DNA of 32,017 nt from Candidatus Diapherotrites archaeon CG10_big_fil_rev_8_21_14_0_10_31_34 (GTDB taxonomy: Archaea; Iainarchaeota; Iainarchaeia; Iainarchaeales; 1-14-0-10-31-34), in the NCBI GenBank assembly GCA_002763225.1, contig PFAI01000057.1:10090-42106 (forward strand), written 5' to 3'. Below, piece after piece: positions 4,601 to 26,346 of this stretch (positions are counted from its first letter, which is position 1; every line of letters starts with the position of its first letter). The position numbers and the translations under genes are program-made. The notes under the pieces are model-generated. The model was not told where the DNA came from and did no database searches. It saw only the letters and a program-made list of their open reading frames with translations.

Positions 4601-7600
4601 AAAAGCAGGATTTAATCTAGCAGAAAAAATAATTAATATAAGTGAAAACATTGTTTCTTTTGTTCCAACAGAAATCAGTGAAAGCTTTAACGCAAAAAAA
4701 TATTCAGTACCGGTTACAAGAGATATTATAGTCAAAAACATCACTGAAATGCCTTTAACACTTCTTGATGTGGAATTAACTGATTCATTCAAGGGATTAA
4801 TTGAAACAAAAATTGAAAGCTATAATGAAGAACTGCTTGCCGGAGAACAAGGGCAAATATTAATTGATTTAGGTTTAACAGAAAAAGGAAGAAAAGTAAC
4901 TCAGCTTACTTCAGTTACAGGAGAAATAATAATTATATTTGAAGACCCTGAAACAGAAAAACAATGGACTGCAAGTGTTCCACTAAATATTACAATTGGT
5001 TTAGGAGGAGAAGTAGATTACACTGACTGCTTTTCAATTGCTCCAATTGAATGGAACATATTAACCCAAAACAAAACAAAAGAACTCAAATTAGTTTTAA
5101 ATAATTCTTGTACTGTAGACGGAGAAAATATTGCATTAAAAAACATTAAAGCAAAAGTAGTCTGGAAAGAAAATGCAATAGGAGACTTTGACTTAACTTC
5201 AACAATTGAAGGAACAAACTCAATTACCTTAAAAAACACTTACCAGATTTTAGCTGAAGAATTCAATCCAACTTCAGGAGAAGAAGAAAATTTAGGGTTA
5301 GTATTCCTTCCGGATGACATTCCAACAGGAAGCGGAACAGCAACAGTTTACTTGGAAGCAGTTAACCCGACAGAAAACGGAGAACAATTATTAAAACAAA
5401 AAATTGAAGTAAATGTTCAGATAAGCGATTTAACTGAATGCCTGAGAATTACCCCAACAAACAACCAGCTAAGAATTCAAATGAATTATTATAACCAAGG
5501 ATGGGGTTATAACAGCCAGTATTTTGGATATGATCCTACTGCTTCACAAGGAAGCGTTTTCAATAACAGCAATGTTGTTTCAGTTGGAGATTACAGGAGC
5601 CAGCAATGGCCTGCAACCTATAATTACATGGGCCAGTACACTAATCCACAGGCATATAATTCAGCATTAAATTATTCATGGAATTTTAATTCTTCAGGAA
5701 CCGCTTCAATTGAAATACAGAATAACTGCCCTTCACAGGTTCAAATTGAATTAGATCCTGCAGCAGAAATAAGTGTTTCTGACTCAACCATTATGCTGGA
5801 AGAAGGAGGAAGCAAAACAATTGAAGTAACTCCTTCAATGTTTATTGGGCAATATAAATTGGTTATAAAAGCAAAGTACAAGCAGTCAGATGAATCAGCT
5901 TCAGAAGTAGCAAGATACAATGTTTTGGTTGAATCAGAATTCATGAAAAATTACTATGACTGCATTACATTAAGCCCGACAACTTTCACTTTCAATGACA
6001 TTATAGCAAAACCAGTTGAAGGAATAATCTGGAATACCTGTTATGACCAGGGAGTAATATTAAGCCAGAACTCTATTCCATCAAGTTTGGATGGAACAGC
6101 AACATACACAAGCAACCAATATAATACGCTTTCAAATTCAACGCTTTATGCAGGCACCCAGGTTCAGACTGCACAAAACCAGAAAAAACTTGAAAGCTCT
6201 GGAATAATTAAATCAATCCAGATTTATCCAATAAGCAATAAACCTGGTGTAGACGGAAAAATCACTCAGGAACTAAGATTCAGGTTATGGAAAAATCTGG
6301 AGTACACGCCAAAAGACATTAAACTTCCTGATGACACAAATCCATTAGTTGAATTAGCTAATTTAAGGATTAGGTTAAGCGGACTGTATTACAAGGTTGA
6401 AGCAGAAGAAAGGCTTCCAATAACATTTTATAACACATCAGGATTACAGGAAACCCTTCCATTTGACATAATCATTGAAGATTTATGGGCATTAGCAGGA
6501 CAAGATATAATTGACTTTGGAAATGCAAATATTACCCACCAGCAATGCATTATGCAATTAAATTACACTGACAAAGCAAAAGTTGGGGGAACAAACCAAA
6601 GATGCTTTGAAAACGAAATATTCCAAAACGGAATACTGGATGTTGACGCACAAAAAGTAATAAAGAAAAAACAAGAAGCAAACGGGGGAAAAGATTATTG
6701 CGGTGACCCAGACAGAATTGCAGGAATAATTAACAACAGAATTGAATTAGACTCTGGAATAGTATTGCTTTTCAATATATATAACGGAGACAATATTAAA
6801 CTGACAATAGATAAAACTAATGCAACATGCAATCCAAAAAACATTTCAGGAACACTTTATGCAGAGCTTTCAAGAAGCAATCCTGCAACCACTAAAACAG
6901 TTTCAATTCCATACAAGTTATGCATTGACTTAAAAGGACTGCCTTTATGCACTGAAAAACCTTTGACTACTCCTGAAAAAGAATGCAAAGACAAAGCAGA
7001 GGATGAAACAAAAATAATAAGTGAAAGAATAGATGAAATATTAAAAGGAACAAAAGACAGGCAAACAAAAATTGATGAAATAATTGACGTTTTAAAAGAA
7101 GCCTGTTCAGATTTAACTGGAGAAGAACTCAAAAACATTGCAGAAAAAATGGTTGATGAAACTCCAACAACAGAAATAACAACATGCTCTGAAGGAGGAG
7201 TAACAGGAACAGGAGCTTATGAAAAATACTGTTTTAACACAATTAAATTAGACTGGAGCTGGGATTCAATTGGCATAAAAGAATGCGATTCAGAAGAAAC
7301 TTTCTGTGATTCCTCTCAGCTAACAATTGAATTAGCAAAAAAAGCAGCAAAAATAAATGAACTGGGAATAATAGAAATAGACCAGTTATGCAATGGTTAT
7401 TGTGGAGAAGACGTAAAGAATTCAGCGAATTTATTCAGGTTTTTGATAAACCAGACAAGAGTAAAAGATGAAATAACAGGAGCCACACAAGTATTTTTCA
7501 TTGACAATGATTACTCTATTATTGCAGGAACAAAATTCAGTGAAAAAGAATTAACAGAAGAGCTAAGGAAAACCGGATTAATTGCAGGCTGGTTAGAAAG

Positions 7601-9173
7601 CAGTTTAACCGGAAACGCAAAAACAGTAACTGATTTAGTTGATGACATAATAAAAGAAATGGAATCAAACAAAAACATAGACCTGAATTCAGTAGTAGGA
7701 GAAATTGATTTAGACAAAATTGATACAGGAATATTAGGCGCAGGAGAGCTGGAGAAAATGCTTGGAGCAGACAGAATTGAAACAGGAGCAAACAAATATT
7801 TTGTTACATTTAATGAATACAAAGAATTCAGAAACAAGCTAAAAGCATGCATTACAGCAAATCCTAATGCAATAGAATGCCCGATAGAAAAAGTAAAAAA
7901 TAAATCATCAGGAACAACAAATACAATTATAGTTAATCTTGATATGATGAAAGAATTACAGCAAAACATTGAATTCAAAGTAGGAATAAGAAATGTTAAA
8001 GAAATTTCAGAAGAAGATAAAATAACAATTATGCAAAAAGGAAAAGTAAGAGTAAAAGAAAAACTAAAACAATTTGGATATAACACATTACTAGAATTTT
8101 ACAAAGAAAACATTGAATTCACTGCCTACTTAAAAAAAGACGGTTTTGGTTCAGGGTTTAATTCAGACTTCTATAACGCATACTTAAATGAAGCAAAAGC
8201 AGATGAAGGAAAAATACTGGAAGAATTCAAATCAGGAACAGCATGGAAATTCAAAACAAAAAACAACTCAATCGAAACAGGAAGCCACAAAGTATTATTA
8301 GCCTATGACTGGTTTGCTAATAAAAACACTGAAGTGACAATCACATTAGAAGACAAAATGGAAAAACTTCATCCAGAATGCCAAAACAATTATTTATTTA
8401 ACATTCCGTTTGACGGAAAAATAGGATATGAAGACAATAAAAGAGAAGGTTATGGAACAAAATATGGAACAGATAATTCAGTTAACGAAATTTATCTGAA
8501 TACAAAAATTGCATTAAAAGATGATTTAACAAATGGAATTAGCTCTTATAACGCAGAAAAATCAAATAAATTTGGAGACAGCAGAAGCGGAACAATACTG
8601 GAAATCAATGAAGACAAAACATTTAATTTTACTCCATCAAAAGCAATTGGATTAAAAGCAGACCTTTCTTCAAGCGGAAGCAAAGGAGTATTCTATGATT
8701 TAATGCATGGACAAACACAGGTAATTGGAATAAAAGAAGAAACAGGATTAAGCTATTTGTTTAACTGGACTGCAGGACAAGATAATAAACAAAAAGAAAG
8801 CCAGTTAAACAAAGCAGACCAGACATGCACTCAGGAAAGATTTGGAATAATCTTTGAAGCAAATGCAAAAGAAATCCAAAAAGTATTAAGCTTTATTCCA
8901 GTGGAATGGGGCTATAATTTCAAAAGGCAATGCAGTAATGGAATTGATTCAATGACCGGATATGCATTTGATGAAAACGGAAAAGCAGAAAAAACAATCA
9001 TTCCGGCAAACGGAACTTTTACTTCACAAGACATGTATGGGGACACAGCAAAAAACACAAGCCTGCAGAAATGGATTGAAGACATTAAAACAGGAAATGT
9101 TTGTGTTACTACAACCACAAAAGAATTCAAGCTTGAATGGAATAAACAAAAATTAATGGCGGAGCTAAGCTAA
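1641..9173 (+). CDS. Giant membrane-anchored surface protein, paralog 1 (2510 aa): conserved N-terminal leader, one TM anchor, tandem CarboxypepD_reg-like beta-sandwich repeats, Cys-marked central region, conserved C-terminal module
   Basis: An uninterrupted 7.5-kb ORF with ATG at 1641, preceded by gaggggaaggt (1626-1636, SD-like). The N-terminus is MGLKEIYSAIEEKYY...IPSF, followed by a hydrophobic helix (about nt 1764-1835). About six ~80-aa repeats span roughly nt 1857-3410, for example ISVSVVDEKGEPVENTKLFLKD...GKAVFDRVAEGEYIVRAEKRGF, which is typical of carboxypeptidase regulatory-like/Ig-like folds. Landmarks shared with the other two giants include LCSENFC, GGEVD..C and KLDWSW...FCDSSQ. 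N-glycosylation sequons are abundant. Confidence 0.9.
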   Translation: MGLKEIYSAIEEKYYGLMDGIDKTGIPVYKVIDFFESKNIPSFPLFIIFILLIIGGSFFLLTGAGGFLETTTDFSVIVKSDGIGVDAATLTYELKGEKKTVTTDSDGKAKLEVITGKDFIVTAAKEGFKESKATFNSSKDTTGLMVLISSLLQPIRVQLLGKGNELLSKNITVNFTCTENNEWNERITVSTGSAELSDVPADCGTILAEPAGMQCDECNFRADGSLIKIYLDEVETETGTISFTIEDSTGNLLDGIEVLVIPAGTTIAENSCTTYNGMCNAEVPFGEYYVRATDYSGKMKDFDSKGKTNNIIINSNNQNIEFNTITLEEGAIGEIKLRVKDSDGKAIENALVKLFKDGTETREQRTTSSGEAVIKVAEQINYTITITHPDYLNSGSKTVSPKTDFYEIILEQATASNKRAISVSVVDEKGEPVENTKLFLKDADTLNIVGDEKITGFDGKAVFDRVAEGEYIVRAEKRGFEGKDSKRIEVKEKEPQEVTIALDIGEGTLEVTVVDKERQPIQSATVKVKDFYSNQEYAVYSTDQEGKKSFTIRADKKVFLEVSESSHSNYISAPIQMFDGTEEKTIILEDEISVFQVKLDSLELEGQALEDETVNQGKTYKAVFKVMIPRGTVSTEAGTHIRTGADTKNQNNTMEKDDLYIKSVSAANAKIIKGTTFNPSTGEGIDNSHLTSGNAKWANIIFNNVKEAAYEIIAVIQVRETVSGTDMELAYRGWVIEGGYQRDPFDSELQEAENTGIKQGLYAEARHEPLRIGASSLCSENFCTSFTARDLANATRTNIVDSFPAEISSNYELEFNIISISEKAYSNSELVIEGKGLKLNSYEIEGDKKNASDKIVIPIGSISKGQKMSGKINFTTKSEGTNRIDFSLFGESLNLGKEKILFKPIRAEVALAKTMNIITTPKNLVPFIQNNLLVKLTDEEENDLAETTIKIEKDNETVSIGKTDSKGIYAFSFEALNAGTEIKITAEKAGFNLAEKIINISENIVSFVPTEISESFNAKKYSVPVTRDIIVKNITEMPLTLLDVELTDSFKGLIETKIESYNEELLAGEQGQILIDLGLTEKGRKVTQLTSVTGEIIIIFEDPETEKQWTASVPLNITIGLGGEVDYTDCFSIAPIEWNILTQNKTKELKLVLNNSCTVDGENIALKNIKAKVVWKENAIGDFDLTSTIEGTNSITLKNTYQILAEEFNPTSGEEENLGLVFLPDDIPTGSGTATVYLEAVNPTENGEQLLKQKIEVNVQISDLTECLRITPTNNQLRIQMNYYNQGWGYNSQYFGYDPTASQGSVFNNSNVVSVGDYRSQQWPATYNYMGQYTNPQAYNSALNYSWNFNSSGTASIEIQNNCPSQVQIELDPAAEISVSDSTIMLEEGGSKTIEVTPSMFIGQYKLVIKAKYKQSDESASEVARYNVLVESEFMKNYYDCITLSPTTFTFNDIIAKPVEGIIWNTCYDQGVILSQNSIPSSLDGTATYTSNQYNTLSNSTLYAGTQVQTAQNQKKLESSGIIKSIQIYPISNKPGVDGKITQELRFRLWKNLEYTPKDIKLPDDTNPLVELANLRIRLSGLYYKVEAEERLPITFYNTSGLQETLPFDIIIEDLWALAGQDIIDFGNANITHQQCIMQLNYTDKAKVGGTNQRCFENEIFQNGILDVDAQKVIKKKQEANGGKDYCGDPDRIAGIINNRIELDSGIVLLFNIYNGDNIKLTIDKTNATCNPKNISGTLYAELSRSNPATTKTVSIPYKLCIDLKGLPLCTEKPLTTPEKECKDKAEDETKIISERIDEILKGTKDRQTKIDEIIDVLKEACSDLTGEELKNIAEKMVDETPTTEITTCSEGGVTGTGAYEKYCFNTIKLDWSWDSIGIKECDSEETFCDSSQLTIELAKKAAKINELGIIEIDQLCNGYCGEDVKNSANLFRFLINQTRVKDEITGATQVFFIDNDYSIIAGTKFSEKELTEELRKTGLIAGWLESSLTGNAKTVTDLVDDIIKEMESNKNIDLNSVVGEIDLDKIDTGILGAGELEKMLGADRIETGANKYFVTFNEYKEFRNKLKACITANPNAIECPIEKVKNKSSGTTNTIIVNLDMMKELQQNIEFKVGIRNVKEISEEDKITIMQKGKVRVKEKLKQFGYNTLLEFYKENIEFTAYLKKDGFGSGFNSDFYNAYLNEAKADEGKILEEFKSGTAWKFKTKNNSIETGSHKVLLAYDWFANKNTEVTITLEDKMEKLHPECQNNYLFNIPFDGKIGYEDNKREGYGTKYGTDNSVNEIYLNTKIALKDDLTNGISSYNAEKSNKFGDSRSGTILEINEDKTFNFTPSKAIGLKADLSSSGSKGVFYDLMHGQTQVIGIKEETGLSYLFNWTAGQDNKQKESQLNKADQTCTQERFGIIFEANAKEIQKVLSFIPVEWGYNFKRQCSNGIDSMTGYAFDENGKAEKTIIPANGTFTSQDMYGDTAKNTSLQKWIEDIKTGNVCVTTTTKEFKLEWNKQKLMAELS

Positions 9174-12100: not shown

Positions 12101-15100
12101 TGATTGCAGGACCAATAATGACAAACAAAACAGGAAAAGCAATACTGGTAATTCCAGGACAGGCTCCAGACACAACACTAACTATTAGAGCATCAAAAAA
12201 AGAGTTTGAAGTATTAGAACAAGAATTACCAGTTAGTGGAAAAATAGTTGAAATTACCCCGGAAAAAATAGGGTTATTATTAAACACCCAAAAAAATCCT
12301 TCAGATATTTTTGGATTAAAAATAAAAAATTTACTGGACTTTGATTTAGAATTAACTTCAATTAAATTCACAGGAAATCCAAGAGGACTGCTTGACTTGG
12401 ATGCAATGGAAGCATGGGCTGAAACAAACCACGGAAACAAAATAATTCCATCAAAATTATTTGAAGAAATTGAAATAAAAGCAATTTTAACTGATTATGC
12501 AATTGAAAGAGGAGAAAGAGATATAGTTGACTTAACATTAGAATTAGAGTTTTCTAACGGAGAAGCAGTTTGGACAGAAGAAATTCCTGCAAGAATTTCA
12601 ATCGGAGTAGGCGGAGAAGTAGATGATCCAAATTGTTTAAGCCTTGAAACAAAAGAATGGAAAACAGGAACAGAAGGACAAAAAGTGCAAGTGGATTTAT
12701 CAATTGAAAACTCTTGTACAATAGACGGAAAACCTGTTGACTTAAAAGATTTGGAAGCAAAAGTTAACTGGAAAACAAATCATGTTGGAAGATATTCTTT
12801 GGCTTTTGAAGACACTGCAATTGAATTAAGGTCAGCTTACTACAGAAAAATGGATTCAACAATAAAAAACGGAATAAGCACTGCAGTACTGTCTTTTGAG
12901 CCAAACGGAGGAGTAAACGGAGAAGCAATAGCAGACATTGAATTAAGGGCAAGAAATGAATTAGAAGGAAAAGACGAATTTATTTCAGATGTAATTTCCA
13001 CTGAAATAAAAATAATTAATTTAGAAGACTGCATTAAAATTTCTCCAACAGAATTAAAAATCAGAAAAGGAGAAACAGCTGCATTTAAAGTTGAAACACT
13101 TGGATGCGGAAGTACAATTGAATTTACTTTAAACCCTGAAGTAAAAGTCAGCCAGGAAAGATTTTCTTTAGGAAGCCAGGCAAGCCAGGAAATAATAGTT
13201 GATTCAGCAGGAGAATACTCCGGAAGATTCTTGATTGGAGTACAGGCAAAAGGAAATGAATTGCAGACAAAAAACGAACTGCTAAATGTGTTTGTAACAA
13301 TATTTGAAGATTCTTGTGTAGAGTTAAGCAGATATGAATTTGATATTTATGATGACCCAAATCAGTTGTATGACGGTTATGATACAGCACAATTATTTAA
13401 CAGATGCCCGGAAAAATTAGTTGACATAACAGTTGACATGCAGGACTGGAGTTTAGCAATGAGAAAAGCATTGCTTCCGACAGTAATTGCTTTTGGGGCA
13501 ACAACGGTTTTTGGCGGAGACGAAGAAAAAAACAATGAGTTATCACAAACTACAGTTAAAATCCCAAAACCAGTTGAAATGAATGACTATGATATGGATT
13601 CTGAAGACCCAATGCAAATAAAATATAATGAAACTCCTGCAGAAGTCAGCAGCCAGCAAAGCCAGCCAATTAACAAAGGAGCATTTGGATGGATCAGAGA
13701 AAATTCCAAAGCACAAAAACAGGAATTAATTATTACTGAAGGAATTAATGACAAACCAACAGTAGCAGAAAATAATGATAATGAACCAATAATTGTAGAA
13801 GAAGTTGGAGAAACTGTTTCTGCAAAAGAATCAATTCCTGCAACAGGAATGTCAATTATTCCGGGGTTAGACGGAATAAATAACCTGCTTGGATTAGGAA
13901 ATTTGCTTCCAAGCATTTTTGGAAATATTAATCCTTTCACTGCATTTGGATTGACTTTTGTCGGAGCAACCTTATACAATTACTTTGAAGCAGACACAAT
14001 AAGCATAACAGGAATTCCAGTTGAAGACATTGTAGTAATGGACTTAAAATTATTAGACGGAATAGCTTATGCTAATGAAAAAATTGAAGTGGAAGAAACA
14101 GGCATTACAATGAATTTAGACGGCCCGTTTTCCTGCTTTGACTCTTTAACAGGAGAAGTAATTGACTGCTGGGACATAACTTTTGTAAACACAACAGGAT
14201 TAATTCAGGAAAATGAAAACACTCCGATAATGAAAATACTTAAAACAGAGTCAATAGAAAAATTCTGGAAAAAAGATTATGACGCAGACTACTTTAATGA
14301 AAACAAAAACTTTTTTGAAAAACTATTGCAGGGAACAGAAATGAATTATGAAAAGCCATTAGAAGAATTAACTGAAAAAAGAAATGAAATCAATCAATAT
14401 AACAGGCTACAGTTTAATTCATGGAAATACACAGACGATATAACCGGAGACCAAGGCTATGGTTCCTGCAGATTAGGAGAGCTAAACGGGGAAACAGGAG
14501 AACAAGCCCTGCCAAAAATTAAATTAGACTGGAGATGGAATAAAATTGATTCAGATCAATGCGACCAGGGAAACTCAGATTACATTTACTGTGATGCAAC
14601 ACAATTCTCAATTGAATTATTAAAGAAAATAAATGAATTAACTGATTTATTGGAACAAGAACAATTGATTTGTTCAGATGACTGCTCTACTTTGAATGTT
14701 TCTTCTTTAATCCAGAAAACAGAAGAAGAAAGAGGGGCAACAGCAAACAAAGAAAAAATAACTGAATTAATTAATTTCAGGTCTTATTTAATCCAAGACG
14801 GTTATTCAACTGACTTCCAAGAAGACTTCCATGATTACGCAGTAAATGAAGCCTTTTTTGAAACTCCAATTTATTATTATTCACCAGAAGAAAATGATAA
14901 ACTAGGAGAATACTTTAAAGACAAAGAATTATTTGACTTTGAATATGACGGAAGCCCTAATGCGCCATTGTCTGCTCCTGGGTTATATAAAGTGTTTATT
15001 GAAATTGAATACAATGATAATTCATGGAAACTATTTAAGGGAAGCAATCCAAATGCAAAAATAATTATTAGATTAGATAAATTAGAAGCAGCAAAACCAA

Positions 15101-16108: not shown

Positions 16109-19100
16109 TTGGGTTTAAAAGATATTTATAATTCAGCTGAAGACAAATACTATGAAATAATTGACTCAATAGATAAAACCATTCCAATAACAAAAATAAC
16201 TGATGCAATTGATTCAGTTGTTCCTTCTTTTGCTTTATTGCTGGTTTTGATTGTTTTAGTTCTAGGATTTTTATTATGGCCAGTAATTTTTCCTGCAGAA
16301 ACAATTTCATACAAAATAACAGTTGAAGATGAAAACGGAAATTTTTTAGAAGGAATAAACGCAAGCATTACTCCGGCTGAAACAGGAAAAGGAGATTTAA
16401 TGCAGGGAATATTTACAACAAATGAAAAAGGGGAAATAAATTCAACTGCAAGAAAAGGAACAGAAATAATAATTGAAATAAAAAATTCAGGGTATGAAGA
16501 AGAAAAAAGAAATGCAATAATAGAAGAACAAAATCAAAAAATTATTTTTAAATTAAAAAAACTTGTTTCAGAAGAGCCGGCTGAAGCAACACTAAGGTTT
16601 ACTGATTCAGGAGGCCAAAGAATTACAGGAAAAGAAATTACAGTTAAATTAAGCTGTAGAAATTCATCTGTTGTTCCTTCTCCTTCAATTGTACGGGATT
16701 CAGATAAAGACGGAGAAATAATTGTTCCAATTCCAAAAGACTGCGATAAATTAATGGTTGACTCAGTTGAAGTGCTGGGATTTGAAGAATGGAACGGAAT
16801 GGTTAACGGAGCAGTATTATCCATTAAATTAGATTCAATTTCAGAGGAAACAGACAATGAATTAACCGGAGACTTAAGAGTTGTAGTGCAGGATTCAGAT
16901 GGAAATCCATTAGACGGAATAAAAGTAAATTTAATGAAAGGCAATTCAACAATAAAACAAGAATACAGTGATTCAGGAGAAGTGCAGTTTATTGGAGTAT
17001 TAATCGGAGAATATGATTTAGTTTTACAGGATTCAGAAAACAATTATGCAATAAAAAAAGTTTATTCAGTTGAAATCTATAATCAAACTGTAACAAAAGA
17101 AATAGTTGAAATGAAGTTAACCCAAAAAGGAACACTAAAAGTAACAGTAAAAGATATTGATACAGGAACAAGAATAGAAAACGCAGAAGTATTAATTACA
17201 GGTAATGCAGGAGAAATACTTGGAGAAGAAAACACAGGAGAAGACGGGTTAACAGTAGAGTTTGCCTTGTTTTCTGACGAAGAAATAACTATTATTGTAA
17301 GACACGAAGATTACCTGCCTGAAACAACAGTAATAGAAGAGATTTCAAAAGATGGAACAGAAATAACGATTGAACTGGAAAAAATCACTTCAGCTAACAG
17401 CGGAAAACTAAATATAACTTTAGTTGACGAAGAAAACAAAAAAGTAGCTAATGCAAGAGTAATGATTTTAAATGAAGACAAAAGCTTTGCAACACAATAC
17501 CCTGAAAAGTTTTCTGATGCAAAAGGAGATGTAAATTATTCAGGAATAAAAGAAGGAAGTTATATTGTAAGGGCAGAAAAATTTCCTGCTTCAGCTCAAT
17601 CAGATTTATTTGAAATAAATTTAACTGAAATAACTTCAATGACAGTAAAAATGACAATAGGAAATGCAAAAATCCATTTAAAAACAATTGATAATGAAGG
17701 AAATCCAATTCCATTTACCAGAGTAAAAGTTAAAAGTCTGGATAAAGAAAACGAATATCCTTTAGATGAAAAAGGAGAAACAGAATTATTAATTAAAGCA
17801 GACAAAAGAGTTTTCTTTGAATTTTATGACCCAGAAGACAATTATGCAAAATATACTACAAAAGAATATCAGTTGTTTCCAGAAGAAATTAAGCCGGAAG
17901 GATATGAAATTGTCGGAGTAATGAGCGAACAAATTGCAGGACAAGGATTATGGGTTGAACTAAAAGGAGTTTATTCAGATGGAATAAAACAAGATGTTTT
18001 AGTCGGCGGAAGACCTTATATTGCAGTATTTGAATTATTTGTTCCAACAGATGAAAGCTTTGATTCAGCAGGAATTCATGTAAGAGTAGGAGAAGACTCT
18101 CATGTTTTTATGGAAAACGACATTGTTTCAATTAGAAAAATTAATGCACCAGACGCAACAAAAATAAAAGGAAAAACATGGAATCCTGTTAAAGGAGAAG
18201 ACATTGATTTGGATGTAGATAATTCGGCTTCATCTAATGCAGAAGGAAAATGGGCTAATATTGTCTGGGATAAAGTCCAGCCAGGAAGATATCAAGCAGA
18301 AGTTGAAATAAAAATAAATGAACAGGCAACTGATTCAGATGAAATTTCAATTAAATACAGGGCATGGGGAAAAGGACAAGGATATTATTATTTCCCTGCA
18401 GACAATGACCTTGGAGCAACAAAACAAATGCTTTATGCAGAAACACTTGAAACAGTATTTAATGCAGCAGAAGAAATTCCAATCTGCGAAGAAAATAATT
18501 TATGTATGTCAGGACAAATACTACTTGATTTAGAAGAAGAACCTTTTATTACACAAAAAAAACTGCCGTTTAAAACAAAAACATTTGGAACATATGAGTA
18601 TGAATTCAAAATAGCAAACAATTCACTGTCAACTTATGATGAACCAGAAATATGGATTAAATTAATTGACCCAACAGAAAACAACGGGCAGTATGTTGAA
18701 ACAAAAAAAGCAGAAATAGCTTATTATGAAATTAAAAGAGCTGACGGAACAATCATAAAAAACACTGAATTAAATGACACTTCAACTCAGGGAATTGAAC
18801 TAGGAAAATTCATGGACCAGTCAGTAATAGAAGGAACAATTGGAATAAAAACAAAAAATGCCGGAAGCATTTATGCAAATGTTTCAATAATAGAAAAAAC
18901 AAATAAAGGCTCAAATGAAATTTTTAATAATGAACAAAAAACACAAATTAAAATAAGTTCAGAAAAAGAATTAGTTATTACAGCAAAACCAGAGTTTGTT
19001 CCTGCATGGGTTGAAACTCCAATTGAAATCACAGTAAAAGATGATGAAGGAATTGAAGTGGAAAACGCTTTAATTACTTTTAGTGTAATTGAAAGTGAAA

Positions 19101-22100
19101 ACACTGAAACACTAATTGATGCAAAATATTCAAGCAAATTCGGCAAAGCGGAATTTAATATAATGCAATGGGACCCAAAAACAACAATAAAATTTACTGC
19201 AAAAAAGTTTGGCTATGAAACAGGAATAAAAGAAATAATTTTATCAGAAGAAGTATTTGAATTACTTCCTGAAAACATTAATGAAACTTTAAGCAAAAGA
19301 GATAATCCTTTAGTAACAAAAGAAATTACAATAATTAATTTGCTTGAAACAGATTTGAAAATATATGGAATTAATTTAAAAAACGAAGTCGGGTATTTTG
19401 GGGCATTTATTGACACTGAAAGAATGCAGGGAAAATTTGATGGATTTAAAGGGCAGACAGTTGAAGCTTTCCCTCAAGAATTTAATGCAGAAATATTTGA
19501 AGCAAAACTGCAAAATGGATTACAGGATGATTATACTGGAACTGCAAAAGGGATAATGACTGTTTCTTTGATTAACGAAGAATTTGATGCAGTATATGAT
19601 AAAGAAATTGAAGTTAATTTAAGTTTAGGAATAGGAGAAGAAATAGATAATGCTTCTTGCTTGGAAATAGTTTCAGGAGAAACACAGTTTTCAAGACAGA
19701 CAACTTCCCAGCCAGTTCAATTAGCTTATACAATAGAAAATACTTGTTCAGATAATACAGGAAAAGGAATCAGAGTAAATAATTTAAAAGCAAGAGTTGA
19801 ATGGGCTTCATCAAAAAAAGGAGAAGTTTCACTGCAAATGAGTATCCCAAGTAGCGGTCAAAAAACTGCTACGCTAAAAACAACTGAATTCACTGAATTT
19901 TTTTCAAATGTTAACGCAAAAGAAGAATTCCAGGCTTTATTGACTTATACTCCAAACACTGAATTGCTTGGAGAAGAAGGAACAGGAGAATTTACTGTGG
20001 TAATTGAAGCAGAACTTGTTACTGCAGATGGAAAACAAGTAATTCAGACTTCACCTTCTTCAATTCAGGGAAAAATCGGTAATGTTGATTTAATTGAATG
20101 CATTGAATTTGATCCAAAACCAAAAATTGGAACAGTAATTGAATCAGATTCAGATGAAACAGAATTCATTATAACAAATAATTGCGGAATGGAAGTAGAC
20201 TTAAGATTTTGTGACGGAGACAACAGATGCAATGGAGGAACAGAAGAAGGAGGAATAATAGTTACTCCAAAAACAATTACTGACCCATTAACTTTAGGAA
20301 CAGGAAACAATAATGCAGACAAAGTCAAAGTTGAAAAAACAAGCATTCCAGGAATTTATGGAATGAAAATAGAAGCAAAAATTTCAGGAGAATCATGGAG
20401 AGAAATTGCTGTATATGATGTTTTAGTTAAACCAAATGACGGGTATTTTAGTTTAGCAGATTACACTATTGCTGTTCCAGAAACAAATGTAAAAGACATA
20501 ATTGAATTAAAAAATGAAAGATTATATGCTGATGTTAAAGTAACTGCAAGCGACTGTGACTGGGAAACTGCTTCAGACACTTGGGGAAGATGGGATGATG
20601 GAATAAAGGGATTTGGAGCAGGCGGAGCTTCAGCTGCAGGAGCTATTGTTGTTACTGCAATACTATCAAAAGCCGTTGCACTTAGTGCTATGACAGGACC
20701 TGTAGGAATCGCAATAATGGTTGGAGTCGCAGTAATTGGAAGTATTATTTGCATTTTTGCCTGCCCTGACCCCTGCGATAATGAAACAACCACAATCTTG
20801 CAGGACAATATAATCAGATTAAGCACCTACAATGACTCATCAGATTTAAATGGAATCAGCTTATCACTTAAAGGAATTGAAGTAGGATGGAATTTTGAAG
20901 ACGCAGTATTAGACTTTATAAATAACGCGCCTCCGGGAAAAGAAACAATTCCATTATACTTTGAAAAAACAACTTCAGATTATGACAATATTAAACCAGC
21001 TTATGGAATACTGACAATAGATGCAATAGAGCATCCCCACAAAGACACTCTTAAAGTGCCAAGAGGAAATTCAAATTTCGGTCCATTTAACCTGCCTGAA
21101 TATTATTCAGGAAGAAAAGCAGTATGGACAACAAATTCAATAAAGAAAAAATTCCATGTAAGGGCAATAACAAAAAGATTTATTGAAGAAATTCCTCCAA
21201 TAAACACAAGCCTTGACTGTGTAAGACCAACAGGAGAAATAGGAGGAATAGGAGAACAAGCTTTACCAAAAGTAAAATTAGACTGGGAATGGAATTCAAT
21301 TGCTTTCAATGAATGCGAACAATCAAATGAAAACTATGTTTACTGCGATTCAACTCAGTTTGCAATAATGCTGAATAAAAGAATACACAAAATAGATGAA
21401 TTCATGAAAGAAAACAATTATGGTTTTGACTGCCCGGAAAACCCAATAGAAAAAGCAGCTAATTCAAACTGGGAAAAAACAAGAATGCATGATGTTGCTG
21501 AAGGAAAAATAGGGATAAACCAAGTGCAGATTAATACAAACAAAGAAACAAACAAAACAACAATTGATGCAGTAATACTAAACAAAAATATTTCTCCAAT
21601 GGAAGCTAAAGTAACAATGAATTTAACTGTTCCAGAAGGAACTGAATATGCAGGAGAAACAGAATGCATAAAAGAAACCGGAATGCTTGGATTAAATTCA
21701 AGCAAAACAGTTTCCTGTGAATTTGTTTTGCCTAAAACAGAAGAAGCATATAAAATTGAAGTAAGGCATGTGCCTCAAAAAATAATTGAGGATCCAATTG
21801 AAAGAGTTAAATATGATTCATTTGCATTTAACATTAATTTCACTTTATTTGAAGAAAAAGAATGCTGGGCAGGAACTTCAACAATAGATACAGCAGGAGT
21901 CTTTCCATTAAACCTTTACCTGAATAAATTAGACCCTCTCTGGGGGGAATACGTCAAACAAGAAATAATTAAATTCCAGGGCAATAATATTTCTACAGAT
22001 GATACAAAAATAATTAATGTAATTGAAAATGTAAAAGAATTAAGTCATTTTAATGTTTATATGATGAAAGATGGTTTTAGCCAAGACTTTAAAGAAGATT

Positions 22101-23302
22101 TTGCAGACTATTATGAAAACGCGTTTTTGGGTTCAGCAACATGGTTTACAGACGGAGATTCAGATACAACAAACAATGAGTTAGCTGAATACTTTAAACA
22201 AGATGGATTGCTTTCATTTAACAGAAAATATTTAAGAGAAGAAAAATATGAATTACCTGAACCAGGATTATACCGGGTTGATATTCAAATAGATTACACT
22301 GGAGACAAATGGAGTTTATTTGATGTAAGCGAAAAACCAAACGCAGAAATCAGAGTTGAATTCACCAGATTAAACACTCCAAATGTTGATTCAATCTTTT
22401 ATTATATGCCGTTTGATGGAAAAGTAGGAGAAGAAAATTTTGCTTACCATAGAATTGGATATGGAGCAGGCTACACTAACTTAAAAGAAGAAAACTTAAA
22501 TGTAAACAATAACACTGTTCTTTCTTCAAGCAATACTTCTAGTGCACCAATACAAGAAATATTAATAGAAAAAAGCAATTCATTAAATGAAATGAATTCA
22601 GATGAAGAAACAAGAGGAAGCATTTTGAATTTAAATTATGACGGAAGCGACATAAAAATGAAGTTTGCTCCTTCAAAAGCAACTCCAGTTGTATTAAGAA
22701 TGTGGCATGAACAAACAAGCTCAACAAATGAATTCACTTATTATTATGGAATGCAGGAAAGTAATTTGCCTGTTTTAGCAGGAGACAAACTTGCGTTTTG
22801 GAGAGGATTAGGGAGATGCAGAGACTTTGAAGGAAAGTTTTTGCAGAATTATAAAAGATGGGATACTCAAACTGGAAGCGAATCACAGAGTTTATATGAA
22901 GTAGCATGGAATAATGCAGTCAAAGGAGGAGACACTTACTTAAAAACAATTTTATACACTCCAGTTGAAAGAAACATTAACTTAAAAGTAGAAGAAGATG
23001 TTTCAGTTAAAAAATCAGCTTTGTTTACTCCAAACGAAAAAAACTCTAAAATAATAGGATTAAACGGAATAACAGAAATGCAATACAATAATGCAAACCA
23101 GCAAAGCAGCAGTTATTTAAAAAACATTAAAAACGTGTTTGATTTAGTTAAACAAGGAAAATTATGTATTTCGCAAAACGATTCTTCATTAAACGTTTAC
23201 TGGAATGAACAAGAATTATACAGAACAAAAGGAGCAGACACAGGGCAAAGCATAAATGATTTAGAAGAATCATTGGTTGCCGGAGACAACTGCATTGAAT
23301 GA
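16109..23302 (+). CDS. Giant membrane-anchored surface protein, paralog 3 (2397 aa), TTG start
   Basis: The start codon at 16109 is TTG, read directly as ttgggtttaaaa. This start is supported because it reproduces the MGLKD leader of paralogs 1 and 2, and by agaggggaa (16095-16103) upstream. It has the same architecture: leader, TM helix, beta-sandwich repeats (about 16300-17880), GEEIDNASC, KLDWEW...YCDSTQ and MPFDGKVG. It also has a strongly hydrophobic Gly/Ala-rich internal double segment at 20609-20764. Confidence 0.9.
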   Translation: MGLKDIYNSAEDKYYEIIDSIDKTIPITKITDAIDSVVPSFALLLVLIVLVLGFLLWPVIFPAETISYKITVEDENGNFLEGINASITPAETGKGDLMQGIFTTNEKGEINSTARKGTEIIIEIKNSGYEEEKRNAIIEEQNQKIIFKLKKLVSEEPAEATLRFTDSGGQRITGKEITVKLSCRNSSVVPSPSIVRDSDKDGEIIVPIPKDCDKLMVDSVEVLGFEEWNGMVNGAVLSIKLDSISEETDNELTGDLRVVVQDSDGNPLDGIKVNLMKGNSTIKQEYSDSGEVQFIGVLIGEYDLVLQDSENNYAIKKVYSVEIYNQTVTKEIVEMKLTQKGTLKVTVKDIDTGTRIENAEVLITGNAGEILGEENTGEDGLTVEFALFSDEEITIIVRHEDYLPETTVIEEISKDGTEITIELEKITSANSGKLNITLVDEENKKVANARVMILNEDKSFATQYPEKFSDAKGDVNYSGIKEGSYIVRAEKFPASAQSDLFEINLTEITSMTVKMTIGNAKIHLKTIDNEGNPIPFTRVKVKSLDKENEYPLDEKGETELLIKADKRVFFEFYDPEDNYAKYTTKEYQLFPEEIKPEGYEIVGVMSEQIAGQGLWVELKGVYSDGIKQDVLVGGRPYIAVFELFVPTDESFDSAGIHVRVGEDSHVFMENDIVSIRKINAPDATKIKGKTWNPVKGEDIDLDVDNSASSNAEGKWANIVWDKVQPGRYQAEVEIKINEQATDSDEISIKYRAWGKGQGYYYFPADNDLGATKQMLYAETLETVFNAAEEIPICEENNLCMSGQILLDLEEEPFITQKKLPFKTKTFGTYEYEFKIANNSLSTYDEPEIWIKLIDPTENNGQYVETKKAEIAYYEIKRADGTIIKNTELNDTSTQGIELGKFMDQSVIEGTIGIKTKNAGSIYANVSIIEKTNKGSNEIFNNEQKTQIKISSEKELVITAKPEFVPAWVETPIEITVKDDEGIEVENALITFSVIESENTETLIDAKYSSKFGKAEFNIMQWDPKTTIKFTAKKFGYETGIKEIILSEEVFELLPENINETLSKRDNPLVTKEITIINLLETDLKIYGINLKNEVGYFGAFIDTERMQGKFDGFKGQTVEAFPQEFNAEIFEAKLQNGLQDDYTGTAKGIMTVSLINEEFDAVYDKEIEVNLSLGIGEEIDNASCLEIVSGETQFSRQTTSQPVQLAYTIENTCSDNTGKGIRVNNLKARVEWASSKKGEVSLQMSIPSSGQKTATLKTTEFTEFFSNVNAKEEFQALLTYTPNTELLGEEGTGEFTVVIEAELVTADGKQVIQTSPSSIQGKIGNVDLIECIEFDPKPKIGTVIESDSDETEFIITNNCGMEVDLRFCDGDNRCNGGTEEGGIIVTPKTITDPLTLGTGNNNADKVKVEKTSIPGIYGMKIEAKISGESWREIAVYDVLVKPNDGYFSLADYTIAVPETNVKDIIELKNERLYADVKVTASDCDWETASDTWGRWDDGIKGFGAGGASAAGAIVVTAILSKAVALSAMTGPVGIAIMVGVAVIGSIICIFACPDPCDNETTTILQDNIIRLSTYNDSSDLNGISLSLKGIEVGWNFEDAVLDFINNAPPGKETIPLYFEKTTSDYDNIKPAYGILTIDAIEHPHKDTLKVPRGNSNFGPFNLPEYYSGRKAVWTTNSIKKKFHVRAITKRFIEEIPPINTSLDCVRPTGEIGGIGEQALPKVKLDWEWNSIAFNECEQSNENYVYCDSTQFAIMLNKRIHKIDEFMKENNYGFDCPENPIEKAANSNWEKTRMHDVAEGKIGINQVQINTNKETNKTTIDAVILNKNISPMEAKVTMNLTVPEGTEYAGETECIKETGMLGLNSSKTVSCEFVLPKTEEAYKIEVRHVPQKIIEDPIERVKYDSFAFNINFTLFEEKECWAGTSTIDTAGVFPLNLYLNKLDPLWGEYVKQEIIKFQGNNISTDDTKIINVIENVKELSHFNVYMMKDGFSQDFKEDFADYYENAFLGSATWFTDGDSDTTNNELAEYFKQDGLLSFNRKYLREEKYELPEPGLYRVDIQIDYTGDKWSLFDVSEKPNAEIRVEFTRLNTPNVDSIFYYMPFDGKVGEENFAYHRIGYGAGYTNLKEENLNVNNNTVLSSSNTSSAPIQEILIEKSNSLNEMNSDEETRGSILNLNYDGSDIKMKFAPSKATPVVLRMWHEQTSSTNEFTYYYGMQESNLPVLAGDKLAFWRGLGRCRDFEGKFLQNYKRWDTQTGSESQSLYEVAWNNAVKGGDTYLKTILYTPVERNINLKVEEDVSVKKSALFTPNEKNSKIIGLNGITEMQYNNANQQSSSYLKNIKNVFDLVKQGKLCISQNDSSLNVYWNEQELYRTKGADTGQSINDLEESLVAGDNCIE
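20609..20764 (+). other. Internal Gly/Ala-rich double hydrophobic segment (predicted TM hairpin or membrane-insertion element) inside giant protein 3
   Basis: The translation is GFGAGGASAAGAIVVTAILSKAVALSAMTGPVGIAIMVGVAVIGSIICIFAC, followed by PDPC. These are two ~20-aa apolar stretches about 1500 aa from the N-terminal anchor. GC content is locally higher because of Gly/Ala codons. Confidence 0.6.
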
Positions 23303-23403: not shown

Positions 23404-23751
23404 ATGGAATCAGATTTAATTGCATTTCTTTTTATTACAGATTTTATTGCAGACATGACTTTTGCATTAAAGATTTTTGTGCTTTTAGCAATAATTTCTT
23501 TTATCAAAGGAAATCTTGGAACAGGGCCTTTTGCAGTAATTTTAATGGCTTTAGCTTCATATTTTGTAATCTTTGATCAATGGAAATTATTTGGAGGAAT
23601 ATACATTTTATACGTATTGTTTTTCTTTGGTTTAGGGCATTTGTTAGTAGACTTCTTTTTTGTTGCACAACATGCTCCATCAGATGACCAAATAGCACAG
23701 CAAATGAGCCATATTCCAAGCCAAAATGTTCCAAGGAGAGGGATGCATTAA
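23404..23751 (+). CDS. Small integral membrane protein (115 aa), KGNLG-motif family member 1
   Basis: It has three hydrophobic helices and the motif KGNLGTGP (nt 23506-23529) after the first helix. Its stop overlaps the next start by 1 nt (TAATG at 23749-23753). Confidence 0.7.
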   Translation: MESDLIAFLFITDFIADMTFALKIFVLLAIISFIKGNLGTGPFAVILMALASYFVIFDQWKLFGGIYILYVLFFFGLGHLLVDFFFVAQHAPSDDQIAQQMSHIPSQNVPRRGMH

Positions 23752-24089: not shown

Positions 24090-24090
24090 A

Positions 24091-24345: not shown

Positions 24346-24346
24346 A

Positions 24347-24652: not shown

Positions 24653-24653
24653 A

Positions 24654-25142: not shown

Positions 25143-25145
25143 ATT

Positions 25146-25652: not shown

Positions 25653-25653
25653 A

Positions 25654-26232: not shown

Positions 26233-26346
26233 TTTACCACAAACTATTGTTTTTTATTTAAAAGTGTCTTTATTTTTAAATTATTACTCCATTTATAATA
26301 TGAAGAACTTATTTATATTAGTTTTTAATTTAGTTTAAGTGATACA

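What the first reader, a model, noticed from the sequence alone, without database searches (positions are those of the whole stretch)
20609..20776. Fusion-peptide-like Gly/Ala-rich hydrophobic hairpin about 1500 aa into giant protein 3
The sequence GFGAGGASAAGAIVVTAILSKAVALSAM-TGPVGIAIMVGVAVIGSIICIFAC-PDPC lies between two large polar, Cys-containing, sequon-rich regions that both look extracellular. Two adjacent apolar helices could form a hairpin that returns the chain to the same side of the membrane. Such a hairpin could act as a second anchor in the cell's own membrane, or as an element that inserts into another cell's membrane. Its Gly/Ala-rich composition resembles viral class I fusion peptides; this is a compositional analogy only. 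Paralog 1 has nothing equivalent, so the element is a lineage-specific gain or loss within the family.
Basis: partly seen in the sequence, partly recalled or inferred. Interest (0 to 1): 0.65.

Follow-up and report, generated by a model that had tools for sequence, protein, structure and literature searches.

The report
Conserved membrane hairpin in giant archaeal protein
A 2,397-residue surface protein of a tiny groundwater (DPANN) archaeon carries, two-thirds of the way along, a conserved pair of greasy Gly/Ala-rich helices closed by a probable disulfide, which most likely dips back into the cell's own membrane as a second anchor rather than acting as a virus-like fusion peptide.

Summary
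Window 20609-20776 encodes g3 residues 1501-1556 exactly as quoted, and four independent groundwater assemblies carry it without indels.

It is not a one-off. g3 belongs to an unnamed family of about 2,300-2,600-aa proteins from Iainarchaeota and Micrarchaeota MAGs (757 clusters at 50% identity). About 43 of 98 alignable representatives, mostly one large clade, carry the same element at the same site.

The element has four conserved features:
- A loop of 45-200 aa sits between two Ig-like domains.
- Two covarying Cys bracket the loop (g3 C1483 and C1556).
- The first helix is marginally hydrophobic and Gly/Ala-rich (g3 dG +1.0). The second is strongly hydrophobic (g3 -0.8; family median -1.55).
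- An acidic D-P-C flank follows the second helix.

Both flanks must lie outside the cell. The C-terminal domain is homologous to that of paralogs without any internal hydrophobic segment. Cys counts are even. Some relatives replace the hairpin with a 21-46-aa polar loop.

Best reading (about 0.55): an N-out/C-out helical hairpin in the cell's own membrane. The class I fusion-peptide reading is not supported, because the flanks are beta-sandwiches and helix 2 is too hydrophobic to escape the translocon. However, the tip lacks positive charges, so insertion into a partner cell's membrane is not excluded (about 0.17).

The parts
16109..23302 (+). g3, a giant surface protein of 2,397 aa (TTG start). 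It is the third of three tandem paralogs and the host of the hairpin.
   Evidence: ORF list and translation. CarboxypepD_reg, Big_1 and SpaA Ig-like domains lie in the N-terminal half. Orthologs of 56-57% identity occur in L002, L003 and L018.
16217..16291 (+). N-terminal signal-anchor transmembrane helix of g3 (aa 37-61), preceded by a conserved ~40-aa 'MGLKDIY..EDKYY' head.
   Evidence: KD 3.10 and dG -4.7 kcal/mol. The head and helix are conserved in g1, g2 and g3 and in nearly all full-length relatives.
20555..20608 (+). Upstream bracket Cys (C1483) and the acidic, Trp-containing polar lead-in 'CDWETASDTWGRWDDGIK' (aa 1483-1500).
   Evidence: C1483 is at least 90% conserved in alignments A3 and A4. 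It covaries with C1556 across 82 representatives (CC 55, C- 5, -C 5, -- 17; Fisher p = 3e-9).
20612..20692 (+). Helix 1 (aa 1502-1528): Gly/Ala-rich and marginally hydrophobic, with one Lys (K1521).
   Evidence: KD 1.86. dG +1.0 for residues 1502-1525. AF2 helix at residues 1504-1525 with pLDDT 36-51. The family N-helix median dG is +1.4.
20693..20704 (+). Uncharged turn T-G-P-V (aa 1529-1532).
   Evidence: AF2 shows a 5-residue break between the helices. A G-P-x-G or CPxC motif recurs at this point in relatives.
20699..20764 (+). Helix 2 (aa 1531-1552): strongly hydrophobic and of transmembrane length.
   Evidence: KD 2.79. dG -0.8 for residues 1527-1552. AF2 helix at residues 1531-1551 with pLDDT 51-61. 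The family C-helix median dG is -1.55 and is below 0 in 36 of 43.
20762..20776 (+). C-P-D-P-C exit motif (aa 1552-1556), which includes the downstream bracket Cys C1556.
   Evidence: C1556 is invariant in A3. The '[DE]DPC[DE]' motif is conserved in most hairpin-type relatives. C-flanks across the family carry 79 acidic versus 11 basic residues.
20777..23299 (+). C-terminal ectodomain (aa 1557-2397). It is the most conserved part of the family (motifs K-L-D-W-x-W and PFDG) and holds 10 Cys and 12 sequons.
   Evidence: Profile A2 finds 757 representative proteins. AF2 gives pLDDT 86.2 for residues 1690-2397. No whole-domain match was found in PDB or BFVD.
13447..13983 (+). Degenerate, Cys-less counterpart in paralog g2. 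It comprises a weakly hydrophobic stretch (aa 1422-1444) and a Gly-rich stretch (aa 1555-1600) at the same junction.
   Evidence: Paralog alignment. dG +1.37. It groups with the Cys-less relatives P0004 and P0060.
1641..9173 (+). Paralog g1 (2,510 aa), with no internal hydrophobic element.

Best explanation
The element is an integral-membrane helical hairpin with both ends outside the cell (N-out/C-out). It sits in a disulfide-closed loop between two Ig-like domains of a giant, Sec-exported surface protein of a DPANN archaeon.

Proposed sequence of events (inferred from established Sec/translocon behaviour):
1. The N-terminal signal-anchor (aa 37-61) starts export of the ~1,420-aa Ig-repeat region.
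2. The hairpin reaches the translocon. The strongly hydrophobic helix 2, with its acidic D-P-C-D exit, prefers an N-in/C-out orientation.
3. This preference forces the marginal Gly/Ala-rich helix 1 to act as the stop-transfer partner.
4. The two helices partition into the cell's own membrane as a pair, packed through small-residue faces.
5. Export resumes for the 840-aa C-terminal domain.
6. Outside the cell, C1483 and C1556 probably close the base of the hairpin.

The result is a protein pinned to its own membrane at two points. The Ig-repeat half forms a tethered arch, and the conserved C-terminal module is held close to the membrane surface.

Shown: the hairpin's presence, its conservation, its helix asymmetry, the Cys covariation, and the same-side flanks.
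Inferred: which membrane it occupies, the disulfide itself, and the insertion order.
For: 1. Length and hydrophobicity fit two membrane spans. The 52-aa stretch carries a single charge. Helix 2 has dG -0.8 and KD 2.79; helix 1 has dG +1.0. AF2 models two helices with a tight turn.

2. The physicochemical pattern is conserved but the sequence is not. Among the 98 representatives alignable across the loop (105 of the 150 listed are full-length), 43 have the hairpin at the same junction. Among close orthologs the core is 27-44% identical while the flanks are 49-75% identical.

3. The helix asymmetry is conserved. The C-helix is more hydrophobic than the N-helix in 40 of 43 relatives, with medians of -1.55 and +1.4. 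Segments with KD up to 3.0 would be retained by a Sec translocon.

4. Several lines place both flanks on the same, non-cytoplasmic side:
- The bracket Cys covary (p = 3e-9).
- Flanks are acidic and the C-flank almost lacks K/R (79 acidic versus 11 basic).
- Inside the hairpin clade some relatives replace the element with polar 21-46-aa Cys-closed loops.
- The C-terminal domain is homologous to that of g1 and other paralogs without an internal TM.
- Cys counts are 10, 4 and 10 in the three segments.
- The flanking folds are Ig-like, as in adhesins.

5. Each genome keeps one hairpin-type paralog beside hairpin-less ones. Examples are L002 with L023, L003 with L016 and L025, and L018 with L020. 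This points to a specialised role.
Against: - There is no positive-inside signal at the turn. Across 38 hairpin loops the hydrophobic core holds 25 acidic and only 11 basic residues, and most tips are uncharged.
- Helix 1 is only marginal (dG +1.0).
- Some relatives have uncharged cores of only 27-36 aa, too short for two full spans.
- About ten relatives have a CPxC motif at the tip, which would more naturally be a disulfide in an oxidising compartment.
- AF2 confidence in the hairpin is low (pLDDT 36-61).
- No dedicated topology predictor was available. The dG scale was re-implemented from memory and checked only against the 3-Leu/16-Ala threshold.
- No experimental data exist.
Confidence: 0.55

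Rival explanations
1. Deployable membrane-insertion element. The hairpin is exported and shielded, for example within an oligomer or against the Ig domains. On contact it inserts from outside into a partner or host cell's membrane. It would then act as a fusion-loop-like or toxin-like anchor, so that the ~1,420-aa Ig rod bridges the two cells.
For: - The tip lacks basic residues and more often carries D/E (25 versus 11). That fits a tip that must cross a bilayer from outside better than a cytoplasmic loop does.
- The probable disulfide at the base resembles disulfide-closed internal fusion loops. This comparison rests on established knowledge and was not tested here.
- Some relatives replace the hairpin with Trp-rich acidic loops that look interfacially active (P0120, P0024, P0063).
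- The organisms are DPANN archaea, many of which are episymbionts (PMC6642349).
- The giant proteins evolve faster than their neighbours (56% versus 73-94% identity), as contact proteins often do.
Against: - The C-helix is as hydrophobic as a genuine membrane anchor (dG down to -4.4, KD up to 3.0). The protein has an N-terminal signal-anchor, which implies Sec export, and such a segment would be captured by the producer's own membrane.
- No heptad-repeat or helical-bundle machinery flanks the hairpin to drive or shield insertion; the flanks are beta-sandwiches.
- No fold match to viral fusion proteins was found. The only hit was a generic Ig-like subdomain match to HAP2 domain 3.
- It is unknown whether Iainarchaeota have hosts.
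Confidence: 0.17
2. Not in a lipid bilayer at all. The two Gly/Ala-rich helices are a glycine-zipper-type packing module buried in a protein interface. This could be homo-oligomerisation of the giant protein or docking onto a partner such as the conserved small membrane proteins encoded downstream.
For: - In the long-loop clade the equivalent segments are only ~12-16 aa and very Gly-rich. They bracket a 300-400-aa insert with an even number of Cys and with sequons, so there they cannot be membrane spans.
- The loops of relatives P0089 and P0002 score on the Pfam Gly-zipper models.
- Core length varies from 27 to 103 aa.
Against: - In g3-type proteins the C-helix is 22-26 aa of Ile/Val/Leu-rich sequence, which is unlikely to be soluble or buried in a beta-rich protein.
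- The g3 loop itself has no Gly-zipper Pfam hit.
- AF2 does not pack the hairpin against the flanking domains with any confidence.
Confidence: 0.13
3. Single-span topology. Only helix 2 crosses the membrane as a stop-transfer, helix 1 lies on the outer surface, and the C-terminal 840 aa is cytoplasmic.
For: Helix 1 alone is predicted not to insert (dG +1.0; family median +1.4), while helix 2 is.
Against: - The C-flank of helix 2 is strongly acidic and nearly free of K/R (79 versus 11), the opposite of a cytoplasmic flank.
- The bracket Cys covary.
- The C-terminal domain is homologous, with conserved Cys, to the domain of paralogs and clade members that have no internal hydrophobic segment and must export it.
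- The domain carries 12 sequons and 10 Cys, and its subdomains are Ig/CARDB-like.
Confidence: 0.07

Closest known systems
Glycine-zipper two-helix membrane modules (Pfam Gly-zipper_Omp PF13488, Gly-zipper_YMGG PF13441, Glycine zipper 2TM PF05433; SlyB/Pcp-type bacterial lipoproteins)
   Same: Both have two short adjacent helices rich in Gly/Ala with small-xxx-small spacing and a tight turn. The loops of relatives P0089 and P0002 score on these models, with P0089 above the PF13488 cut-off.
   Different: - The g3 loop itself gives no hit.
- Helix 2 of g3 is Ile/Val-rich rather than Gly-rich.
- The context is an internal, Cys-bracketed loop of a 2,400-aa archaeal protein, not a small bacterial outer-membrane lipoprotein.
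- These Pfam models are largely compositional.
Disulfide-closed internal fusion loops of some class I viral envelope proteins, and class I fusion peptides in general (comparison from established knowledge only)
   Same: Both are Gly/Ala-rich apolar segments lying between extracellular regions. Both have a probable disulfide at the base of the loop.
   Different: - There are no flanking heptad-repeat helices; the flanks are Ig-like beta-sandwiches.
- The element is about twice as long.
- It contains a segment hydrophobic enough to be a stop-transfer anchor.
- No structural match to viral fusion proteins was found.
Helical hairpins with one marginally hydrophobic helix in polytopic membrane proteins (neighbour-assisted insertion; established translocon biology)
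   Same: A weak first helix (dG +1.0) is paired with a strong second helix whose flanking charges fix its orientation. The turn is short.
   Different: Here the hairpin is the only internal membrane element of a very long, otherwise extracellular protein. Its tip lacks the usual basic residues.
Giant surface proteins of other DPANN archaea, e.g. SPEARE proteins of Nanohaloarchaeota (PMC6642349)
   Same: Both are very large, mostly extracytoplasmic, adhesion-domain-rich, membrane-anchored proteins. Both take up several per cent of a tiny genome and are proposed to mediate cell-cell contact.
   Different: - There is no sequence or domain relationship. The family has no protease, toxin or restriction-enzyme domains.
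- SPEARE proteins have one TM near an end and a cytoplasmic enzymatic tail. This family has an N-terminal anchor plus, in one clade, an internal hairpin and no cytoplasmic domain.
Hydrophobic helical hairpins of pore-forming toxins (colicin pore domain, diphtheria toxin T domain)
   Same: Both have an uncharged hairpin of two ~20-aa helices whose tip is uncharged or acidic. P0002 gave a weak sub-threshold hit to Diphtheria_T (E = 0.57).
   Different: Those hairpins are buried in a bundle of amphipathic helices that keeps the toxin soluble. Here the neighbours are beta-sandwich domains.

Membership tests
Pfam glycine-zipper families (PF13488, PF13441, PF05433) | Score at or above the family's gathering threshold. 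| tested here: not met
   The g3 loop (74 aa) gave no Gly-zipper hit even at E <= 10. Relative P0089 passes PF13488 (29.3 versus 25) and ties PF13441 (28.9). P0002 falls below the cut-off (25.8 versus 28.9).
Pfam glycine-zipper families (PF13488, PF13441, PF05433) | Small bacterial outer-membrane or lipoprotein context. | tested here: not met
   The element is an internal loop of a 2,397-aa archaeal protein with an N-terminal signal-anchor.
Class I viral fusion peptide / internal fusion loop | An apolar Gly/Ala-rich segment followed by heptad-repeat helices that refold into a helical bundle. | tested here: not met
   AF2 shows beta-sandwich domains immediately before and after the loop (pLDDT 80-95). 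Fold hits are Ig-like adhesins, pilins and complement domains.
Class I viral fusion peptide / internal fusion loop | Hydrophobicity low enough for the segment to be exported rather than integrated during biogenesis. | tested here: not met
   Helix 2 has dG -0.8 kcal/mol and KD 2.79. The family C-helix median is -1.55 and is below 0 in 36 of 43. The scale was re-implemented from memory and is approximate.
Class I viral fusion peptide / internal fusion loop | A disulfide closing the base of an internal loop. | tested here: inconclusive
   The two bracketing Cys covary strongly (p = 3e-9).
Two-span transmembrane helical hairpin (N-out/C-out) | Two hydrophobic helices of about 18 or more residues separated by a short turn. 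| tested here: met
   Helices at residues 1504-1525 and 1531-1551 with a 5-residue turn. The uncharged core has a family median length of 54 aa.
Two-span transmembrane helical hairpin (N-out/C-out) | Both helices predicted to insert (dG about 0 or lower). | tested here: inconclusive
   Helix 2 meets this (-0.8). Helix 1 is marginal (+1.0) and would need neighbour-assisted insertion.
Two-span transmembrane helical hairpin (N-out/C-out) | Both flanks on the same, extracytoplasmic side. | tested here: met
   - Cys covariation and acidic flanks.
- Short polar loops replace the hairpin within the clade.
- The C-terminal domain is shared with TM-less paralogs.
- Even Cys counts and sequons on both sides.
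Two-span transmembrane helical hairpin (N-out/C-out) | Positive-inside bias at the cytoplasmic turn. | tested here: not met
   Hydrophobic cores of 38 hairpin loops hold 11 K/R versus 25 D/E, and most tips are uncharged. g3 has a single Lys (K1521) about 8 residues before the turn.
Two-span transmembrane helical hairpin (N-out/C-out) | Experimental or dedicated-predictor topology (DeepTMHMM, TOPCONS, reporter fusions). | not testable with these tools
Pore-forming-toxin hydrophobic hairpin (colicin / diphtheria T domain) | A hairpin sheathed by amphipathic helices within an all-alpha domain. | tested here: not met
   The flanks are beta-sandwiches. The only related result is a sub-threshold Diphtheria_T hit in a relative (E = 0.57).

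The most novel reading that the evidence does not exclude
The disulfide-closed hairpin is the membrane-active tip of a cell-to-cell bridge. Under this reading the N-terminal anchor stays in the DPANN cell and the ~1,420-aa Ig rod spans the gap. The hairpin then inserts into a partner cell's membrane, possibly oligomerising through its small-residue faces into a pore or fusion intermediate. That would give a molecular handle on how DPANN archaea open contact with their hosts.
Probability: 0.15. Interest if true: 0.85.

Novelty: new variant of a known kind. Interest (0 to 1): 0.5.

Why it matters
DPANN archaea have tiny genomes, yet this one spends about 21.6 kb of a 32-kb window on three paralogs of one unnamed protein family. 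The family has 757 clusters at 50% identity, no Pfam model for its conserved half, and no structural relative.

An old, conserved paralog class within the family carries a Cys-bracketed membrane hairpin. This gives the first concrete topological model for these proteins and a short, testable element.

If the hairpin sits in the cell's own membrane, it defines an unusual doubly pinned surface architecture. If it inserts into another cell's membrane, it would be a candidate for the unknown machinery of DPANN-host membrane contact.

In both cases the ~75-residue segment can be tested directly with standard topology and membrane-insertion assays.

Tried and rejected
- The word-indexed homology search with g3 aa 1400-2397 found only one fragment, P0001. 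The search with alignment A3 found nothing, probably because Gly/Ala-rich words swamped the candidate list. The exhaustive profile search and the genome scan were used instead.
- Pfam and NCBIfam gave no family for the C-terminal half, the N-terminal head, the small downstream membrane proteins or the 504-aa neighbour.
- Sequence search of the PDB found nothing for the C-terminal profile or the 504-aa neighbour.
- Foldseek returned only generic Ig/FnIII/CARDB subdomain matches for both models against the PDB and for the C-terminal model against BFVD (TM-score normalised to the query at most about 0.17). The HAP2 domain-3 hit is a generic beta-sandwich match and was rejected as evidence of a fusogen.
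- Literature searches found no description of this family.
It was rebuilt with rows from the representative search.
- I tested whether the hairpin co-occurs strictly with the downstream small-membrane-protein cluster. It does not: the cluster also follows hairpin-less giants in L010 and L022.
- A direct numerical comparison with viral fusion-peptide sequences was not made. The fusion-peptide analogy therefore remains compositional.
- The C1483-C1556 distance in the model could not be measured because coordinates are not exposed.
Full report
**1. What is there**

The window has about 31% GC. It comes from a DPANN-type archaeon:
- It carries an archaeal family-B DNA polymerase at 29561-31984.
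- Its closest relatives among species-representative genomes are MAGs labelled Candidatus Iainarchaeum, Candidatus Micrarchaeota or simply 'archaeon'.
- The same sequence is present in many groundwater and aquifer metagenomes.

Three tandem paralogous genes occupy 1641-23302:
- g1: 2,510 aa
- g2: 2,278 aa
- g3: 2,397 aa, with a TTG start

They share 26-28% identity. Each starts with a conserved ~40-residue head (MGLKDIY..EDKYY) followed by a strong transmembrane helix (dG -3.1 to -4.7). Next come about 1,400 residues with CarboxypepD_reg, Big_1 and SpaA Ig-like domains. Each ends with a conserved, Cys-containing C-terminal region of 500-850 residues that matches no Pfam or NCBIfam model.

**2. 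The observation**

- Helix 2 (about 1531-1552) is as hydrophobic as a membrane anchor: KD 2.79 and dG -0.8 kcal/mol.
- Helix 1 (about 1502-1528) is Gly/Ala-rich and marginal: KD 1.86 and dG +1.0.

I re-implemented the dG scale from memory of the public predictor. It reproduces the known threshold of about 3 Leu in 16 Ala, but it should be treated as approximate.

A 48-residue window this hydrophobic arises in 0.02% of shuffles of g3. Four independent metagenome assemblies carry the region with no indel and no substitution.

AF2, run with a 22-sequence alignment, gives two helices (1504-1525 and 1531-1551) joined by a 5-residue turn. These sit between two confidently modelled beta-sandwich domains. 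The helices themselves have low confidence, with pLDDT 36-61.

**3. It is a conserved feature of a large family**

A profile of the C-terminal halves of g1-g3 plus one metagenomic fragment finds 757 representative proteins at 50% clustering, 473 of them below E = 1e-30. Most are 2,300-2,600 aa long.

Of 105 full-length proteins among the best 150, 50 have an internal hydrophobic segment. In most it lies 170-220 residues upstream of the conserved K-[LV]-D-W-x-W motif. Orthologs of 56-57% identity (L002, L003, L018) and a 54%-identity metagenomic ortholog (L001) all carry the hairpin.

I aligned 98 representatives to a profile of the junction region. The element lies in a loop bracketed by two Cys, g3 C1483 and C1556. 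The two Cys covary: both present in 55, only one in 10, neither in 17 (Fisher p = 3e-9). The loop is a hot spot for variation, from 21 to about 490 residues, and falls into four types:

| Loop type | Description |
|---|---|
| (a) Hairpin type | 45-200 aa; 43 representatives |
| (b) Long type | 300-400 aa. Only ~12-16-residue Gly-rich stubs remain at each end. The polar middle has 4-8 Cys in most members and carries sequons. |
| (c) Cys-less or unalignable type | Includes g1 and g2 |
| (d) Short polar or Trp-rich Cys-closed loops | 21-46 aa; scattered inside the hairpin clade |

A neighbour-joining tree of the flanking domains groups the hairpin type into one large clade, the long type mostly into another, and the loop-less type into a third.

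The hairpin therefore marks an old paralog class, with occasional secondary loss. It is not a recent lineage-specific event. Individual genomes hold one hairpin-type gene alongside hairpin-less paralogs at other loci.

**4. Conserved anatomy**

Across the 43 hairpin-type proteins:
- The first helix is marginal (median dG +1.4; below 0 in only 5).
- The second helix is strongly hydrophobic (median -1.55; below 0 in 36).
- The second is the more hydrophobic of the two in 40 of 43.

The remaining figures were computed on a 38-loop subset of these:
- The uncharged core has a median length of 54 residues (range 27-103).
- The lead-in after the first Cys is polar and acidic, typically C-[DEA]-W-x-[ED]-A.
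- The exit is [DE]-D-P-C-[DE].
- C-flanks hold 79 acidic versus 11 basic residues. N-flanks hold 119 versus 77.
- The core itself holds 25 acidic versus 11 basic residues, so there is no positive-inside signal at the tip.
- A Pro (G-P-x-G) or a C-P-x-C motif usually starts helix 2.

Among close orthologs the core is 27-44% identical, against 49-75% for the flanks. This is the pattern expected for lipid-facing helices under a physicochemical constraint rather than a sequence constraint.

**5. Topology**

Five lines of evidence place both flanks outside the cell:
- The C-terminal domain is homologous, with conserved Cys, to that of paralogs with no internal hydrophobic segment, which must export it.
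- Within the hairpin clade the element can be replaced by a short polar Cys-closed loop without other change.
- The bracket Cys covary.
- The flanks are acidic, and the C-flank is nearly free of K/R.
- g3 has 10, 4 and 10 Cys in the N-ectodomain, loop and C-ectodomain, with sequons on both sides.

The flanking folds are Ig-like, as in adhesins, pilins and complement proteins.

**6. Mechanism**

The protein has an N-terminal signal-anchor, so Sec export is implied. Helix 2 is of anchor-grade hydrophobicity. The default expectation from translocon biology is therefore that the hairpin partitions into the producer's own membrane. Helix 2, held N-in/C-out by its acidic exit, would drive insertion of the marginal helix 1. 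Export of the C-terminal domain would then resume, and the Cys pair would close the base outside the cell. I rate this at 0.55.

The main reservation is the tip. It lacks basic residues and more often carries D/E or a CPxC motif. Some relatives also have cores too short for two full spans. These points keep three alternatives alive:
- A deployable element that enters another cell's membrane from outside (0.17).
- A non-bilayer glycine-zipper packing module (0.13). The long-loop clade supports this reading, because there the stubs cannot span a membrane.
- A single-span topology with a cytoplasmic C-terminus (0.07). The evidence in section 5 argues against it.

**7. Comparison with known systems**

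The g3 loop does not match the Pfam glycine-zipper models. Two relatives do, one of them above threshold. These models are compositional, so g3 is not a member, but the helix-packing principle is probably shared.

The class I fusion-peptide analogy fails on two defining features. There are no flanking heptad-repeat helices, and the hydrophobicity is too high for export. The possible basal disulfide is a real but untested parallel to internal fusion loops.

The AF2 model of the C-terminal domain is confident (pLDDT 86.2). It has no whole-domain counterpart in the PDB or BFVD, and the profile search of PDB sequences found nothing.

Other giant DPANN proteins, such as SPEARE (PMC6642349), are analogous in size and presumed role. 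They are unrelated in sequence, domain content and topology.

I found no paper describing this family.

**8. Context**

The giant genes sit at the head of a deeply conserved cluster:

giant gene(s) -> four small, roughly 3-TM proteins -> a 168-aa membrane protein -> a 192-aa coiled-coil-like protein on the opposite strand -> an unannotatable 504-aa protein -> PolB.

The cluster is found in at least 13 loci, at 25-94% identity. It also follows hairpin-less giants (L010, L022), so it is not specific to the hairpin. The giants evolve faster than these neighbours (56% versus 73-94% identity).

**9. Verdict**

- The hairpin and same-side interpretation is supported.
- The fusion-peptide analogy is not supported.
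- The 'lineage-specific' reading is replaced by 'defines an old paralog clade'.

This is a new variant of a known kind: an internal helical membrane hairpin, here Cys-bracketed and set inside a giant archaeal surface protein of an undescribed family. Interest is moderate (0.5). It would be high only if the partner-membrane reading proved true.

Noticed in passing
window 23404-27861 (plus PolB 29561-31984); also L002-L012, L018, L022: A deeply conserved gene cluster follows the giant genes. It consists of four small membrane proteins of about 92-117 aa that appear to be weak paralogs (23404-23751, 23751-24089, 24067-24345, 24299-24652). Then come a 168-aa membrane protein, a 192-aa protein on the minus strand, a 504-aa protein with no Pfam, NCBIfam or PDB match, and PolB. 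The order is kept at 25-94% identity across divergent MAGs. It could be an assembly or partner system for the giant proteins.
   Followed up: partly
L001 1-620: In the 54%-identity metagenomic ortholog the reading frame breaks about 20 codons after the hairpin's CPDPC motif, at a GGAGGAGGG run. The gene caller therefore split it into a 179-aa piece ending just after the hairpin and an 843-aa C-terminal piece. This may be a sequencing error, a pseudogene or a genuinely split gene. I could not tell which.
   Followed up: partly
relatives P0018, P0033, P0008, P0041, P0075, P0087, P0069, P0066, P0091 (loop sequences): About ten hairpin-type relatives carry a C-P-x-C motif (WCPPC, FCPPC, WCPAC, PCPVC and similar) exactly at the turn or the start of helix 2. 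g3 instead has C-x3-C-x3-C at the end of helix 2. A redox-type motif at the hairpin tip is unexplained. It bears on which compartment the tip faces.
   Followed up: no
relatives P0120, P0024, P0063, P0017: Inside the hairpin clade some proteins replace the hairpin with short Cys-closed loops that are Trp-rich and acidic, for example CFWGKDGKLDWWGDIWDDWDC. This composition suggests an interfacial membrane-binding loop rather than a simple deletion.
   Followed up: no
relatives P0032, P0043, P0061, P0072, P0127, P0128, P0015, P0088, P0104: The long-loop clade has a 300-400-aa Ala/Ser/Thr/Gln-rich insert with 4-8 Cys, placed between two short Gly-zipper stubs at the same Cys-bracketed site. This may be a distinct extracellular module of unknown fold.
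   Followed up: partly
window 21176-23299 (g3 aa 1690-2397): The conserved C-terminal domain folds confidently in AF2 (pLDDT 86.2, pTM 0.75). It has no whole-domain match in the PDB or BFVD, where only Ig/CARDB/FnIII-like subdomains match. It is probably a new multi-subdomain arrangement.
   Followed up: partly
window 3-1514: This is the C-terminal 503 aa of a fourth, unrelated Cys- and sequon-rich protein that runs off the window start. It has no Pfam hit and contains a short TTQY x3 repeat.
   Followed up: no
window 27962-28997: An overlapping nucleotidyltransferase (HTH + Polbeta/NTP_transf_2) and HEPN gene pair, a typical toxin-antitoxin-like module. It is absent from the syntenic relatives L002 and L003, where the neighbouring genes are contiguous.
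   Followed up: partly
window 16534-17043, 11838-12440, 7511-8086 (minus strand): Long antisense ORFs lie inside the giant genes. They also appear 'conserved' in relatives. This is most simply a by-product of conservation of the sense-strand coding sequence in AT-rich DNA, not evidence of genes.
   Followed up: no
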